Shown here: in pieces, positions 17,890-23,586 of the stretch
How positions within the stretch are numbered: the stretch's first letter is position 1
Layout: the number at the start of each line of letters is the position of its first letter
Source of the DNA: a virus
Direction: 5' to 3' (one strand)
Length of the DNA stretch: 64,000 nucleotides
IMG/VR virus record: IMGVR_UViG_3300021602_000003
Span: 1 to 64,000 of that record
The notes under the pieces: model-generated
Told to the model about the DNA's origin: nothing
The model's input: only the letters and a program-made list of their open reading frames with translations
Databases searched by the model: none
Made by a program: the position numbers and the translations under genes

Positions 17890-18262
17890 TCAGCTACTTA
17901 GAGTAGCAAACTGCGGTAGATAAATTGTTGCGGACGGGGATGCAAATTCCCCCACCTCCACCATAAGCATATTAGCTCCACGGAGCCCCGGTTATCGTTC
18001 TAGACGCGGGATAACGGAATAGTATGTTTTTGATGGGGGTGACTAGTTTCGACGTGGTAGTGGACTATCGTAGTGATCGGGAACGTGAAACCCGCAAGAC
18101 CGTGGTAACTCGGTTAAAGACACATATCAAAGTAAATGCAACAGCATATACAAACGAGTCTTTTGTAGCCCTTGACATGTCAGCTTTCGCTGACAGCGAT
18201 ATGGCTGTGGAAATGGTTGCCTAAGAAACACCAACTCTGTGGTAGAAAGACCATATAACCAA
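17890..18262 (+). ncRNA. ssrA: Circularly permuted two-piece tmRNA
   Basis: Acceptor piece ends CACCTCC-A-CCA (17963); intervening stem; coding piece starts GGGGGTG (18035), giving G3-U70; tag frame 18138-18224; outer ends approximate. Confidence 0.85.
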
Positions 18263-20734: not shown

Positions 20735-21604
20735 ATGAACATGATAAACAATCAGCTGGCCGTGGCAATAAAACATAACGGCAAAATCCTTAGAGAAACA
20801 AAAGACTTAGTACACTTGCCTTACGGCAGTGAATTTAGCGTTTTAGTTAAAAATCTCAACTCTAAACGGGCAAAATTTACTCTGCACATTGACGGTACAG
20901 ATGTACTAGACGGCGAAGAAATTATTGTCAACGGGAACTCGGAAGTCGACATAAAGCGATTTATTCGAAACGGTAATATGAATGAAGGTAACGCCTTTAA
21001 ATTCATAGAAAGAACACAAGCAATTGAAGACGGACCGCGTGGCGTAAAAGTCGACGACGGGATTGTTCGTGTTGAATTTTGGTTTGAACAAGATCAAGCC
21101 GAAATTAAGATTAACGACATTTATTGGGATAAGCACCACTATCGTGATTATTATCACCAACCATATAGGTGGCCCGATATAGTTGGTACAACACGTTACG
21201 GAAACGATTATTCGAAAGGCATTAGCGGTGCGAGCGGGTCTGCTGGGACATTCGGCGATGCACAGTATATGAATACATCGTGTGCGTCGGCACTTAGTAG
21301 GGGTATAGTAAATCAGGTATCGGTCGGAAACCTGCAGGCAACTGCATCATCGGTTCCTGTGAGTGATGTGGGTATTACAGTACCCGGTTCGAAGGTAGAT
21401 CAAAAATTTACACCAGTATATGGTTTTAAATCAGAACTCAATTCGCATGTTATTATTATCAGAATGGCAGGTATGGTAGGTACAGTCGAGGTAGTAGCAC
21501 CGATTACGGTTAAGACAAAACAGAAGTGTTCGACCTGCGCCCGTATCAATAAGGCAACATCCGCCTTTTGTAGCGGTTGCGGAACCTCGCTTAATATAGT
21601 ATAA
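20735..21604 (+). CDS. Hypothetical protein with C-terminal Zn ribbon
   Basis: AAGGA SD before ATG 20735; CSTC...FCSGCG. Confidence 0.65.
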   Translation: MNMINNQLAVAIKHNGKILRETKDLVHLPYGSEFSVLVKNLNSKRAKFTLHIDGTDVLDGEEIIVNGNSEVDIKRFIRNGNMNEGNAFKFIERTQAIEDGPRGVKVDDGIVRVEFWFEQDQAEIKINDIYWDKHHYRDYYHQPYRWPDIVGTTRYGNDYSKGISGASGSAGTFGDAQYMNTSCASALSRGIVNQVSVGNLQATASSVPVSDVGITVPGSKVDQKFTPVYGFKSELNSHVIIIRMAGMVGTVEVVAPITVKTKQKCSTCARINKATSAFCSGCGTSLNIV

Positions 21605-21621
21605 TTTAAGCACTGAGACAC

Positions 21622-21868
21622 ACAAATAAACATATACCAAAGTAGCATAAAGAATGCGCTGCGAAAGCAGAGAGCCTGGCAAGAGCATTACCGGTAAGGA
21701 AATCTATGTTTATTTGTATCATCAGTATTTTTATCTATCAAGTATAGAGGTGTGTTATATACTGAGTACGGGGACGCCTGGAAATGAGTGGCTACTTGAT
21801 AGATAAACATGTATTGAGTATAATAGTGTATGTGCATGCCTGTCTTTGAAACAGGAGGATCTACTCAA
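21622..21868 (+). ncRNA. Array of three stem-closed candidate RNAs
   Basis: 13-bp (21622-34/21705-17), 15-bp (21730-44/21793-807) and 7-bp (21814-20/21862-68) perfect inverted repeats with internal hairpins. Confidence 0.45.
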
Positions 21869-21903
21869 CAGATAAATATAGTTACAACTTAAAAGGAGGT
21901 AAT

Positions 21904-21936
21904 ATGAAATAGATATTAAATAATGGTCCGCCATAA
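21904..21936 (+). other. Minigene AUG-AAA-UAG; amber readthrough gives MK-x-ILNNGPP-stop
   Basis: GATAAATA at 21871, AAGGAGGT SD at 21893-21900, ATG AAA TAG ATA TTA AAT AAT GGT CCG CCA TAA. Confidence 0.6.
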
Positions 21937-21997
21937 AATTAATCAAACGGTTAGTTAGAATAAACAAATTTGATTACATTTTATAAGGACAACAATC

Positions 21998-22366
21998 ATG
22001 AATTTCATTATCAATAAAGAAGAGTATTTAAAATTAATTGCCGCATGGAAAACTATTCCAAATCGCAATGCACAATATCACATTCTATACAATGTGCTCA
22101 GGGGATTTGACCTTAAACGCGGTTTTAGCCCAATACAAAAACAAAGTAAGTTATCGAACGGTGCAACAGAATGGCAGGCATTCGATACCGCCAAAAAAGA
22201 AGTCTGGTGGCTACTACGCGAACCGACCTTTTATGATGGCGATTCTGCAGATAGAAGAGTAAGAAAAGAGCAAGAATTAAAAGATCGAATTAAATTTTTA
22301 AGTGAAAAATTCGGCATCACATTCACAGCTGAACTATTAGCAGCACTCAGGGAATTGCTCAAATGA
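21998..22366 (+). CDS. Hypothetical protein
   Basis: AAGGA SD; coupled to the next gene by ATGA. Confidence 0.7.
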   Translation: MNFIINKEEYLKLIAAWKTIPNRNAQYHILYNVLRGFDLKRGFSPIQKQSKLSNGATEWQAFDTAKKEVWWLLREPTFYDGDSADRRVRKEQELKDRIKFLSEKFGITFTAELLAALRELLK

Positions 22367-22689
22367 ACACATACATATACACTTTTATCCGGGAGGATAT
22401 TTCACCCGCTCAAAAGATTGTGCAACTCGGTCATGCTTGCCATGAAGCAGGTAAATTATTAAATCAATGGGAACATAAACATACATCGAGTTTGATTTTA
22501 TTATCTGCTAAAGATGAGGATGATTTATTAGATATCGCTGCAAGGATCGATCGGGCAGGTATTCTGTTCTGTATGTTTTATGAGCCCGATAATAATATGG
22601 GTTATAGTGCAATTTGTACCAGGCCCGTAAGTAGTACAAGGGAACGAGCATTCTTTCAGAAGTGGGATCTGTATAAACCTGCTGATTGA
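22363..22689 (+). CDS. Peptidyl-tRNA hydrolase 2 (Pth2)-like protein
   Basis: YTFIREDIS..QKIVQLGHA, LILL..KDE..L, FYEPD...SAICTRP. Confidence 0.65.
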   Translation: MNTYIYTFIREDISPAQKIVQLGHACHEAGKLLNQWEHKHTSSLILLSAKDEDDLLDIAARIDRAGILFCMFYEPDNNMGYSAICTRPVSSTRERAFFQKWDLYKPAD

Positions 22690-22714
22690 CAATAAATAAA
22701 TGTGCCTGTAAAAT
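22686..22714 (+). promoter_or_regulatory. Sigma70 promoter
   Basis: TTGACA-17-TAAAAT. Confidence 0.65.
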
Positions 22715-22796
22715 GGCACATACGCGGTATTATCTAGCTGAAGTTTGGATTTTAGATAAATACATTATAGGGTCTATAACTCAGCTAGGTGATATT

Positions 22797-23360
22797 ATGT
22801 TAAAATGTATATGTGGAAAAGAATTCGAAACTTACCGACAATTAAATGGTCATAAGAGTGTCCATAGTCGTGGTGAGGACTATACGAATAGCAGGAAAAA
22901 AGAAATAAAGACTTACAATTGTAGGTATTGTGGAAAGACCAATAAGATTAGCATACATAACCATAATATCTATTGTAATAATAGATGTCAGGGCGACTAT
23001 ACATGGAAATTAACTAAAGAAAAAATAGAAAACGGAACGCGCCCTGCTAATAAGAAGTATATAATAGAAAAATTTGGAAATACCTGCTCTGAATGTGGAT
23101 TAGGTAATATATGGAACGGAAGAGAATTAAGTCTTCAGCTGGACCATATCGATGGCAACAGCGATAATAATGATATCAATAATTTAAGAATATTATGTCC
23201 TAATTGTCATACGCAAACTGATACATTTGGTAGTAAACGTAATGGTTCCGGTATCAAGAAGATTACAAAAAGAAATATGTATTTAAGAAATTATCAATCA
23301 TCTGAAATTATTGGAATAAGAACTGCGACTGAAGCTGATAGGAATAGCAAGGATCTCTAA
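22797..23360 (+). CDS. HNH homing endonuclease overlapping the CUA tRNA
   Basis: CSECG...LQLDHIDGN..NN..NNLRILCPNCH; stop codon lies in the tRNA anticodon loop. Confidence 0.85.
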   Translation: MLKCICGKEFETYRQLNGHKSVHSRGEDYTNSRKKEIKTYNCRYCGKTNKISIHNHNIYCNNRCQGDYTWKLTKEKIENGTRPANKKYIIEKFGNTCSECGLGNIWNGRELSLQLDHIDGNSDNNDINNLRILCPNCHTQTDTFGSKRNGSGIKKITKRNMYLRNYQSSEIIGIRTATEADRNSKDL

Positions 23361-23398
23361 AATTCTGATAGTGGGTTCAATTCCCACCCGTCGCACCA
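23325..23398 (+). tRNA. Amber-suppressor-type tRNA (anticodon CUA)
   Basis: GCGACTG/CCGTCGC acceptor, GCT/AGC D stem, AGGAT-CTCTAAA-ATTCT, GTGGG-TTCAATT-CCCAC, ACCA. Confidence 0.8.
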
Positions 23399-23406
23399 AT
23401 TTTATT

Positions 23407-23586
23407 ATGAACGAAACCATTAAGTATATAGACTGTCCGGAATGCCGTGGGGGTGGTGAGCAAATGATTGCCAGGATGTTTCCAACCGGGCATACAGAAT
23501 GTTGGGAACCTTGTGAGTTCTGTGATGGCGAGGGCAAATTCGAAGAAGCTGATTATTTAATATTAAAGTTAGAAGGCAAAGTATGA
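23407..23586 (+). CDS. Small DnaJ-type Zn-finger protein
   Basis: CPECRGGG and CEFCDGEG. Confidence 0.65.
   Translation: MNETIKYIDCPECRGGGEQMIARMFPTGHTECWEPCEFCDGEGKFEEADYLILKLEGKV

What the first reader, a model, noticed from the sequence alone, without database searches (positions are those of the whole stretch)
21871..23398. Amber-gated minigene, Pth2-like hydrolase and CUA tRNA in one cassette
Seen: late promoter GATAAATA (21871), a full AAGGAGGT SD, then ATG AAA TAG (21904-12). In-frame readthrough gives MK-x-ILNNGPP-TAA (to 21936). Downstream are a hypothetical gene, a Pth2-like gene (22363) and the CUA tRNA (23325); a tRNA-Lys(UUU) is also in the window. Established: two-codon minigenes such as lambda bar cause peptidyl-tRNA drop-off that Pth must recycle, and Pro-Pro before a stop codon stalls termination. 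Inference: either a sensor coupling RF1/suppressor status to operon expression, or a device that drains host tRNA-Lys while the phage supplies its own hydrolase and tRNA.
Basis: partly seen in the sequence, partly recalled or inferred. Interest (0 to 1): 0.82.

Follow-up and report, generated by a model that had tools for sequence, protein, structure and literature searches.

The report
Stop-codon-gated leader keyed to suppressor tRNA
A huge freshwater phage that uses the normal genetic code starts a small two-gene operon with a tiny leader gene. The leader's built-in UAG stop apparently has to be read through by the phage's own stop-reading tRNA before the downstream genes can be translated, which would make it a natural, apparently unpublished sensor of stop-codon readthrough.

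Summary
A Shine-Dalgarno (SD) site, ATG AAA TAG, seven in-frame sense codons and TAA lie at 21893-21936. Downstream come a 122-aa gene, a Pth2-fold gene and a tRNA(CUA).

In this window alone the pattern is no more than chance (2 matches, 1.1 expected). Its weight comes from relatives:
- All 54 related loci with enough upstream DNA (42 distinct leaders) carry one SD-preceded mini-ORF. It has an in-frame stop at codon 3-5, then 6-7 sense codons and a stop.
- The codons after the stop vary mainly at third positions, so they are translated.
- One lineage has a tRNA(UCA) and TGA in the leader in place of TAG.
- Three lineages carry in-frame TAG inside the Pth2-like gene.
- No other gene in two complete 370-385 kb relatives uses TAG as sense.

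In all 42 minimum-free-energy (MFE) folds the leader's 3' end pairs with the next gene's SD.

Best reading: a translational attenuator opened only by suppressor-tRNA readthrough. The bar-like tRNA-Lys drain is not, and Pro-Pro is not generally conserved.

The tRNA has its own promoter and is separated from the operon here by an HNH gene. This scan has found the same design in other genomes. I found no publication. Nothing has been tested by experiment.

The parts
21733..21868 (+). Structured 5' region upstream of the leader. Long-range stems 21733-21749 x 21792-21808 and 21814-21820 x 21862-21868 enclose a small hairpin (21839-21843 x 21851-21855). A sigma70-like TTGATA-17-TATAAT lies at 21796-21824.
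   Evidence: RNAduplex. Relatives have a perfect 19-bp stem with many compensatory changes. Promoter scan. No Rfam family matched. Function unknown.
21871..21878 (+).
   Evidence: Read. TATAAATA-like motifs precede many genes of this genome. Here, however, the motif is the end of the 3' arm of the conserved stem. Promoter activity was not tested.
21893..21900 (+). Shine-Dalgarno site of the leader ORF (AAGGAGGT).
   Evidence: An SD-like site precedes the leader ATG in every relative.
21904..21936 (+). Leader ORF: Met-Lys, amber codon at 21910-21912, Ile-Leu-Asn-Asn-Gly-Pro-Pro, then TAA at 21934-21936.
   Evidence: Conserved in 54 of 54 readable loci, giving 42 distinct leaders. Third-position variation after the stop. 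An opal variant occurs with tRNA(UCA).
21926..21990 (+). Predicted masking hairpin. GUCC at 21926-21929 pairs with GGAC of the next gene's SD at 21987-21990. The stretch 21933-21947 pairs with 21969-21984. The inner stem is 21941-21947 x 21969-21975.
   Evidence: MFE -14.4 kcal/mol, z = -2.64. P(SD paired with the leader's end) is 1.0, against 0.45 for shuffled leaders, with 0 of 30 shuffles reaching it. All 42 relatives show the same architecture.
21998..22366 (+). First cistron: a 122-aa all-helical protein of unknown family. Its stop overlaps the next gene's start (ATGA).
   Evidence: ORF. No Pfam match. 36 relatives aligned. AF2 pLDDT 91. No fold match: Foldseek E > 0.9 and VIA Z <= 4.2.
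22363..22689 (+). Pth2-fold protein, 108 aa.
   Evidence: Pfam PTH2 E 5e-4, 20.7 bits, below the 23-bit cutoff. 17 of 37 family members match PTH2. AF2 pLDDT 90.7. Foldseek top hits are Bit1 1q7s, MJ0051, AF2095 and S. solfataricus Pth2, with TM 0.70-0.76. Three lineages of relatives carry in-frame TAG.
22686..22714 (+). Sigma70-like promoter TTGACA-17-TAAAAT overlapping the Pth2-like stop codon. In uninterrupted relatives it drives the tRNA.
   Evidence: 11 of 12 consensus matches. Present in 33 of 41 distinct relatives, with the tRNA starting about 8-12 nt after the -10 element.
22797..23360 (+). HNH homing-endonuclease gene inserted between the tRNA promoter and the tRNA. A 9-nt stub of the original tRNA 5' end lies at 22724-22732.
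   Evidence: Pfam HNH. Similar to HNH genes of T4-like phages. Absent at this place in most relatives. The stub matches the start of the tRNA in L025.
23325..23398 (+). tRNA with anticodon CUA (amber suppressor) and an encoded CCA end. It has A8 and one acceptor-stem mismatch.
   Evidence: ARAGORN. Rfam tRNA 45.3 bits against a 29-bit cutoff. A CUA tRNA follows the Pth2-like gene in nearly all relatives.

Best explanation
The leader at 21904-21936 is a cis-acting translational attenuator that reports whether UAG is being read through.

Proposed sequence of events:
1. The phage's tRNA(CUA) is transcribed from its own host-type promoter.
2. Ribosomes start on the leader.
3. If RF1 wins at the UAG (codon 3), the ribosome leaves. 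The hairpin that pairs the leader's last codons with the Shine-Dalgarno site of the 122-aa gene stays closed.
4. If the suppressor tRNA wins, the ribosome translates seven more codons and reaches the TAA inside that hairpin. It probably lingers there because the peptide ends in Pro. The lingering ribosome melts the hairpin and frees the SD.
5. The 122-aa protein and the translationally coupled Pth2-fold protein are then made.

The two proteins are therefore produced in proportion to amber-suppressor activity relative to RF1.

Shown here: conservation of the gated leader; translation of its post-stop part; matching of the leader's stop codon to the tRNA anticodon; use of TAG as sense only inside this operon; the Pth2 fold.

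Inferred: SD unmasking as the output; arrest at the terminal stop; what the two proteins do. My guess is that they limit or clean up the side-effects of suppression, alongside the phage's tmRNA.
For: 1. Conservation. Every related locus with enough upstream DNA (54 of 54; 42 distinct sequences) has one SD-preceded mini-ORF with an in-frame TAG at codon 3-5, then 6-7 sense codons and a stop. Protein identity of the neighbouring gene falls to 56%.
2. Translation past the stop. Entropy at codon positions 1/2/3 after the TAG is 0.31/0.00/1.00 in class A and 0.51/0.20/0.87 in class B. It includes a Ser TCT to AGT switch.
3. Key and lock. The only lineage whose tRNA has anticodon UCA has TGA at the leader's gate. 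It was seen in two independent samples, while its nearest relatives (82% and 75% identical) have TAG with CUA.
4. In vivo suppression. In-frame TAG, never TGA or TAA, occurs at three independent positions of the Pth2-like gene and is kept through sequence divergence.
5. Specificity. tblastn between two complete relatives and this genome finds no other true gene interrupted by TAG. TAG ends 10-13% of genes, and there is only one gated leader per genome.
6. Structure. In 42 of 42 MFE folds the leader's last codons plus its stop pair with the next SD. In class A, GUCC pairs with GGAC. In class B, a UUCUUCC-type end pairs with a GGAAGAA-type SD. Two sequences show a C-G to G-U compensatory pair. 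The inner stem covaries. The helix starts 14-16 nt after the gate, just beyond a ribosome sitting on it.
7. Suppression context. The nucleotide after the gate is always a purine. By established knowledge (Bossi) this is a good context for amber suppression.
8. Arrest motifs. C-terminal N-S-P-stop and N-A-P-stop motifs arrest ribosomes at the stop codon (PMC10987492). Class A leaders end N-S-P, R-S-P or G-P-P.
Against: - No experiment of any kind exists.
- The SD-masking helix is nearly invariant within each class, so covariation rests on one class-to-class difference plus one compensatory pair.
- Composition-preserving shuffles of the class B leader still pair with the SD often (mean 0.67 against 0.90 observed).
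- RNAalifold on MAFFT alignments gave no consensus structure.
- The opal/UCA switch is a single evolutionary event.
- The window's tRNA has A8, an acceptor mismatch and an HNH gene overlapping it, so its activity here is uncertain.
- The amino acid it inserts is unknown.
- The window's peptide ends N-G-P-P, which is not an experimentally shown arrest motif. Class B ends N-S-S.
- The Pth2-like protein falls below Pfam's cutoff, and a profile search of PDB sequences found nothing.
Confidence: 0.6

Rival explanations
1. Same sensor, different output. Readthrough ribosomes protect the transcript from Rho or from a nuclease, or change a transcription terminator. Control would then act on RNA synthesis or stability rather than on SD unmasking.
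For: Engineered UAG-in-leader switches work this way through a masked rut site (PMC6412442). A hairpin followed by a T-rich run lies between the leader and the next gene.
Against: The stem is AT-rich with a 20-25 nt loop, and the T-run forms part of the helix. The only terminator-like hits in 21500-23500 lie elsewhere. The spacer is C-poor, which makes a poor rut site. The SD itself lies inside the helix in every sequence.
Confidence: 0.12
2. The readthrough product, a 9-10 residue peptide, is itself the functional molecule. The gate only makes its synthesis depend on suppression, and the peptide does not control the downstream genes.
For: Amino-acid-level conservation of the post-stop part.
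Against: Two peptide classes with different sequences occupy the same position, and each is complementary to its own SD. The distances from the gate to the helix and from the helix to the SD are fixed.
Confidence: 0.08
3. A bar-like minigene. The two-codon ORF with a strong SD makes ribosomes drop peptidyl-tRNA. This starves the host of one tRNA, and the phage's own Pth2-like enzyme recycles it.
For: ATG AAA TAG behind a full SD resembles lambda bar minigenes. A Pth2-fold gene lies downstream.
Against: The second codon is not conserved (Lys, Met, Gln, Leu). Some leaders have 3-4 codons before the stop. The codons after the stop are under coding constraint. The stop tracks the tRNA anticodon. 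The hydrolase would not be translated in exactly the state in which drop-off occurs.
Confidence: 0.05
4. No dedicated function. The mini-ORF is a conserved 5' UTR sequence that happens to be open, and the TAG codons in relatives' Pth2-like genes are inactivating mutations.
For: Within one window the pattern is at chance level.
Against: 54 of 54 loci keep the frame through indels in multiples of three. There is three-base periodicity. The stop and anticodon changed together. TAG-bearing Pth2-like genes stay full-length and diverge while keeping the TAG.
Confidence: 0.03

Closest known systems
Leader-peptide translational attenuators in which a ribosome held in a short upstream ORF unmasks the next gene's Shine-Dalgarno site (ErmCL/ermC, SecM/secA, MifM/yidC2)
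   Same: A short ORF with its own SD. The downstream SD lies in a hairpin whose 5' strand is the end of the leader ORF. Output would depend on a ribosome occupying that end.
   Different: The input is not an antibiotic or a secretion defect. It is whether a stop codon placed early in the leader is read through by a suppressor tRNA encoded next to the operon. The peptide is only 9-10 residues long.
[quoted passage not shown] 2024, PMC10987492) and TnaC-type Pro-stop stalling
   Same: Class A leaders end in Pro followed by a stop. Four of twelve end (N/R)-S-P, and class B ends N-S-(S/T). In the published cases arrest occurs with the stop codon in the A site.
   Different: The published peptides are about 100 residues long, carry localisation signals and sit upstream of sec genes in Bacteroidota. 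The window's peptide ends N-G-P-P. Arrest was not tested here.
prfB (RF2) autoregulation through an in-frame UGA
   Same: An early in-frame stop codon acts as a cis sensor of the balance between termination and an alternative decoding event.
   Different: In prfB the alternative event is a +1 frameshift within the regulated gene itself. Here it is tRNA-mediated readthrough in a separate leader that controls other genes.
Engineered amber-codon leader switches (UAG placed in the tna leader; reviewed in PMC6412442, section 6)
   Same: The logic is the same: downstream expression requires translation of a leader beyond an inserted UAG by a suppressor tRNA.
   Different: Those switches are man-made and act on transcription through a rut site. 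This one is natural and looks translational.
Stop-codon-recoded phages with suppressor tRNAs (Borges et al., bioRxiv 10.1101/2021.08.26.457843)
   Same: A phage-encoded tRNA(CUA) in a phage whose host presumably uses the standard code.
   Different: There is no genome-wide recoding. TAG is a sense codon only in this leader and, in some relatives, in the Pth2-like gene. TAG still ends 10-13% of genes.
Lambda bar minigenes
   Same: A strong SD, ATG, one sense codon and a stop.
   Different: The sequence after the stop is translated and conserved, and the second codon is free to vary.

Membership tests
Pth2 peptidyl-tRNA hydrolase (Pfam PF01981) | Score at or above Pfam's gathering cutoff | tested here: not met
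   20.7 bits against a 23-bit cutoff, E 5e-4. 17 of 37 family members match at E <= 0.01, best 6e-5. A profile search of PDB sequences found no Pth2.
Pth2 peptidyl-tRNA hydrolase (Pfam PF01981) | Compact alpha/beta fold of about 115 residues with a four-stranded sheet | tested here: met
   AF2 pLDDT 90.7, four strands. Foldseek top 13 hits are all Pth2/Bit1 structures, TM 0.70-0.76, E down to 3e-5. Fold description from PMC11202043.
Pth2 peptidyl-tRNA hydrolase (Pfam PF01981) | Catalytic Lys and Asp (Lys18 and Asp86 of the S. solfataricus enzyme, recalled from memory) | tested here: inconclusive
   Lys18 (in an invariant Q-K-I-V-Q..G-H-A block) and Asp76 (in an invariant E-P-D) are invariant in 37 sequences. 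I could not produce a residue-level superposition, and the source paper is not held.
Pth2 peptidyl-tRNA hydrolase (Pfam PF01981) | Hydrolysis of peptidyl-tRNA | not testable with these tools
   Needs an enzyme assay.
SD-unmasking leader-peptide attenuators | Short ORF with its own SD directly upstream of the regulated gene | tested here: met
SD-unmasking leader-peptide attenuators | The downstream SD is paired with the 3' part of the leader ORF | tested here: met
   Window: P = 1.0 against 0.45 for shuffles, with 0 of 30 reaching it. 42 of 42 MFE folds show the pairing. For class B the shuffle control is weak.
SD-unmasking leader-peptide attenuators | Ribosome pausing or arrest on the leader changes downstream translation | not testable with these tools
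   Needs toeprinting and reporter assays.
N-S-P-stop / N-A-P-stop termination-arrest peptides | Asn at -3 and Pro at -1 before the stop codon | tested here: inconclusive
   The window ends N-G-P-P: Pro at -1, but Asn at -4. Two relatives end N-S-P, two end R-S-P, and class B ends N-S-(S/T).
Lambda bar-type minigenes | Function resides in the two-codon ORF, and the sequence after the stop is not translated | tested here: not met
   Codon-periodic constraint after the stop. The ORF before the stop varies in length and codon.
Stop-codon-recoded phages (TAG as sense) | In-frame TAG in many genes, giving low coding density under code 11 | tested here: not met
   The Pth2-like gene of some relatives is the only gene interrupted.
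Amber suppressor tRNA | Cloverleaf that passes a tRNA model, with anticodon CUA in a 7-nt loop with U33 | tested here: met
   ARAGORN. Rfam 45.3 bits against a 29-bit cutoff. Aminoacylation and activity are not testable here.

The most novel reading that the evidence does not exclude
This is a natural 'is stop-codon readthrough on?' switch. A leader ORF's early stop codon co-evolves with the anticodon of a neighbouring phage suppressor tRNA (amber with CUA, opal with UCA). It gates translation of a dedicated two-protein module, one of them a Pth2-fold hydrolase. That would give the 'orphan' suppressor tRNAs of standard-code jumbo phages a defined target, and it may represent an early stage of code change. 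I found no published description.
Probability: 0.6. Interest if true: 0.85.

Novelty: new variant of a known kind. Interest (0 to 1): 0.8.

Why it matters
Suppressor tRNAs are common in phages that do not appear to be recoded, and their purpose is an open question. Here the tRNA has a concrete, conserved cis target.

The module is compact, about 1.5 kb, and could be moved into a laboratory strain to measure how a natural system senses the competition between a suppressor tRNA and a release factor.

It also shows TAG used as a sense codon in exactly one operon. That is the kind of intermediate expected on the path to stop-codon reassignment.

It ties a Pth2-fold enzyme, otherwise archaeal or eukaryotic, to a phage translation-rescue toolkit: tmRNA in the window, and SmpB plus an RF-1-domain protein in relatives.

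It is also a natural counterpart of the amber-leader switches built for genetic-code-expansion work.

Tried and rejected
- Genome-wide TAG recoding: rejected.
- Known RNA family in 21560-22010: none. The best Rfam E-values were 1.2 and 2.4, far below the gathering scores.
- RNAalifold on MAFFT alignments of the leaders: energy 0, no consensus. I used per-sequence folds anchored on the stop codon and the SD instead.
- Profile search of PDB sequences with the Pth2-like alignment: no Pth2 hit.
- Fold of the 122-aa protein: no match by Foldseek (best E 0.94) or by VIA-align against 48,161 chains (best Z 4.2).
- Complex prediction of the 122-aa protein with the Pth2-like protein: no verdict, score 0.02. 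This is neither for nor against binding.
- Amino-acid identity of the tRNA. It is no closer than 0.71 identity to any isotype among the 47-54 tRNAs of complete relatives. The discriminator base is A in most and G in some. Residues aligned to the in-frame TAGs are mixed (K/R/E/Q, Q/E/M/D, N/F/L). Unresolved.
- More opal-type loci: seven further close relatives were fetched and all are amber/CUA.
- Other gated leaders elsewhere in three genomes: none with a downstream SD and ATG.
- Nucleotide search of GenBank phages: only the HNH gene matched.
- Literature searches for a natural precedent: none found.
Full report
WHAT IS THERE. The window is the first 64 kb of a 166-kb IMG/VR phage record that CheckV rates 43% complete. 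Complete relatives are 363-385 kb with terminal repeats and 47-54 tRNAs.
- SD at 21893-21900.
- ATG AAA TAG at 21904-21912.
- Seven more in-frame sense codons, with TAA ending at 21936.
- A 122-aa ORF at 21998-22366, overlapping by ATGA a 108-aa ORF at 22363-22689.
- A tRNA with anticodon CUA at 23325-23398.

Between the 108-aa gene and the tRNA lies an HNH endonuclease gene (22797-23360). Taken alone, 'SD + ATG NNN TAG' is not unusual: 2 matches in the window against 1.1 expected.

CONSERVATION. Using the 108-aa protein I collected 60 related loci from viral and metagenome contigs, mostly freshwater and sediment samples.

Every locus with enough upstream DNA, 54 of 54, has exactly one SD-preceded mini-ORF. 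It carries an in-frame TAG at codon 3-5, followed by 6-7 sense codons and a stop, usually TAA. The seven loci without one are cut off by the contig end.

There are 42 distinct leaders in two classes:
- Class A (12 leaders, including the window) reads (V/I)-L-N-x-(G/S)-(P)-P after the gate.
- Class B (30 leaders) reads (V/I)-Y-(F/L)-(N/D)-S-(S/T).

The residues before the gate are free: MK, MM, MQ, ML, or 3-4 codons. Indels between homologues are multiples of three.

THE PART AFTER THE STOP IS TRANSLATED. Variation after the gate has three-base periodicity. Entropy at codon positions 1/2/3 is 0.31/0.00/1.00 for class A and 0.51/0.20/0.87 for class B. It includes Pro CCG/CCT/CCA/CCC changes and a Ser TCT to AGT switch. 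No canonical start codon follows the gate, so this constraint implies readthrough. The base after the gate is always a purine, which by established knowledge is a favourable context for amber suppression.

THE GATE MATCHES THE tRNA. A CUA tRNA follows the Pth2-like gene in nearly all loci.
- In one lineage the tRNA's anticodon is UCA. There the leader reads ATG, three sense codons, TGA, six sense codons, TAA, behind a normal SD.
- That lineage was seen in two independent samples, one JGI and one Logan.
- In the same lineage the first gene ends in TAA instead of the usual ATGA overlap.
- Its nearest relatives (82% and 75% identical) and seven further close relatives are all TAG with CUA.

This is a single evolutionary event. 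It needed two base changes in the leader and two in the anticodon.

TAG IS SENSE ONLY HERE. The Pth2-like gene carries an in-frame TAG at three independent positions in relatives. It never carries TGA or TAA. The genes remain full-length, and the TAG is kept among diverged sequences.
- tblastn of ORFs among this genome and two complete relatives finds no other true gene interrupted by TAG.
- TAG-separated ORF pairs in this genome are separate genes with their own starts.
- TAG ends 10-13% of genes.
- Only one gated leader with a downstream start exists per genome.

So this is not a recoded phage. Amber decoding is confined to this module.

STRUCTURE. I folded each of the 42 sequences from the gate to the next start codon. 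In all of them the last 2-3 sense codons plus the stop of the leader pair with the SD region of the next gene, around an inner hairpin.
- In the window, GUCC (21926-21929) pairs with GGAC of the SD (21987-21990).
- 21933-21947 pairs with 21969-21984.
- The MFE is -14.4 kcal/mol with z = -2.64.
- Class B uses a different pair: a pyrimidine-rich UUCUUCC-type end against a GGAAGAA-type SD.
- Two sequences show a C-G to G-U compensatory change.
- The inner stem covaries freely.
- The helix begins 14-16 nt after the first base of the gate. By what is known of ribosome footprints, that is just outside a ribosome waiting at the gate, whereas a ribosome at the terminal stop covers the whole 5' strand (inference).

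Caveats:
- The helix hardly varies within a class.
- Shuffled class B leaders still pair with the SD fairly often (0.67 against 0.90 overall), while class A is clear-cut.
- RNAalifold on sequence alignments found nothing.

THE PEPTIDE'S END. Fujiwara et al. (PMC10987492) showed that C-terminal N-S-P-stop and N-A-P-stop motifs arrest ribosomes with the stop codon in the A site. The arrest depends on Asn at -3 and Pro at -1.
- Four class A leaders end (N/R)-S-P.
- Eight, including the window, end G-P-P.
- Class B ends N-S-(S/T).

A dwell at the terminal stop would keep the SD open, as in ErmCL, SecM or MifM. This is an inference from resemblance, not a test.

THE PROTEINS.
- The 108-aa protein is below Pfam's PTH2 cutoff (20.7 against 23 bits), and a profile search of PDB sequences found nothing.
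- Its AF2 model (pLDDT 90.7) matches only Pth2/Bit1 structures at the top of the Foldseek list, with TM 0.70-0.76.
- An invariant Lys18 and Asp76 sit where I recall the catalytic Lys and Asp of archaeal Pth2. That is from memory and unverified.
- The 122-aa protein is all-helical, well modelled (pLDDT 91), and has no recognisable family or fold.

THE tRNA IS A SEPARATE UNIT. A near-consensus TTGACA-17-TAAAAT promoter overlaps the Pth2-like stop codon. It lies at window 22686-22714 and in 33 of 41 distinct relatives, where the tRNA starts 8-12 nt after the -10 element. The circuit is therefore feed-forward: the tRNA is made by host polymerase, and its activity is read by the leader.

In the window an HNH gene has entered between the promoter and the tRNA.
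- A 9-nt stub identical to the start of the tRNA in an uninterrupted relative remains at 22724-22732.
- The present tRNA overlaps the end of the HNH ORF and has A8 and one acceptor mismatch.
- The same tRNA sequence recurs in an 86%-identical relative, which suggests that it works.

CONTEXT. The window carries a permuted tmRNA (Rfam 68 bits). Complete relatives encode SmpB and an RF-1-domain protein (in a 186-aa open frame) within 3-20 kb of the operon. This fits a role for the two gated proteins in coping with the consequences of readthrough, such as ribosomes running into 3' ends and dropped peptidyl-tRNA. Negative feedback on the suppressor itself is equally possible. I cannot decide between the two.

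UPSTREAM. The 'late promoter' motif is, in most relatives, the end of the 3' arm of a perfect 19-bp long-range stem with many compensatory changes. TATAAATA-like motifs do precede many genes here, so promoter function is not excluded. The stem suggests a processing site or a second regulatory layer.

COMPARISON AND NOVELTY. The mechanism class, a leader ORF that unmasks an SD, is well known. The input, readthrough of an early stop codon by a co-evolving suppressor tRNA encoded next door, is to my knowledge not published. Its nearest analogues are prfB autoregulation and engineered UAG-leader switches. This scan has already reported the same design in other phage genomes, there with R-G-P-P leaders. 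Those notes agree with my reading and pointed me to the arrest-peptide papers. I rate it a new variant of a known kind, of high interest, and untested by experiment.

Noticed in passing
window 22686-22732 and 22797-23398: The HNH endonuclease gene is inserted inside the tRNA transcription unit. A 9-nt stub of the original tRNA 5' end (22724-22732) remains after the promoter. A complete but atypical tRNA(CUA), with A8 and one acceptor mismatch, overlaps the last 36 nt of the HNH ORF, as if the mobile element brought its own copy.
   Followed up: partly
window 21733-21868; L011-L068 upstream of the leaders: A conserved 19-bp long-range stem with many compensatory pairs lies just upstream of the leader. 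Its outer part is invariant, and its 3' arm ends in the cATAAATAc motif. A further upstream segment could pair with the 5' arm instead, giving two mutually exclusive folds. There is no Rfam match. It may be an RNase III-type processing site or a second switch.
   Followed up: partly
window 17901-18224: A permuted (two-piece) tmRNA, Rfam RF04321 at 68 bits, is conserved in relatives and has a long tag peptide.
   Followed up: no
G001 149489-149803 and 163694-164098; G003 261639-263257; G004 160993-161319: Complete relatives encode an RF-1-domain protein in a 186-aa open frame (ArfB-like by size). Two of them also encode SmpB. These genes lie 3-20 kb from the gated operon. None was found in the incomplete genome of the window.
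   Followed up: no
L013, L017, L034, L036, L037, L040, L045, L057, L063, between the tRNA promoter and the tRNA: A conserved element of about 100 nt lies between the promoter and the tRNA in a subset of relatives. It may be another small RNA.
   Followed up: no
L016/L049, L062, L010/L026, L112/L113: Some suppressor tRNAs have enlarged or ambiguous anticodon loops. ARAGORN reads them as Arg(TCT), as a 4-base 'ctaa' anticodon, or misses them, yet the CUA triplet is kept. L053 has two CUA tRNAs. L020/L055 have a doubtful 'tta' tRNA directly after the CUA tRNA.
   Followed up: partly
L016, L025, L031, L039, L043, L053, L059, L061: An extra gene of about 120 aa is inserted between the first cistron and the Pth2-like gene in several lineages. 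It remains under the same gated leader.
   Followed up: no
window 58738: A 162-aa ORF ends in TAG and is followed immediately, in frame, by the ATG of a 145-aa ORF. Amber suppression would produce a fusion protein. This may be coincidence.
   Followed up: no
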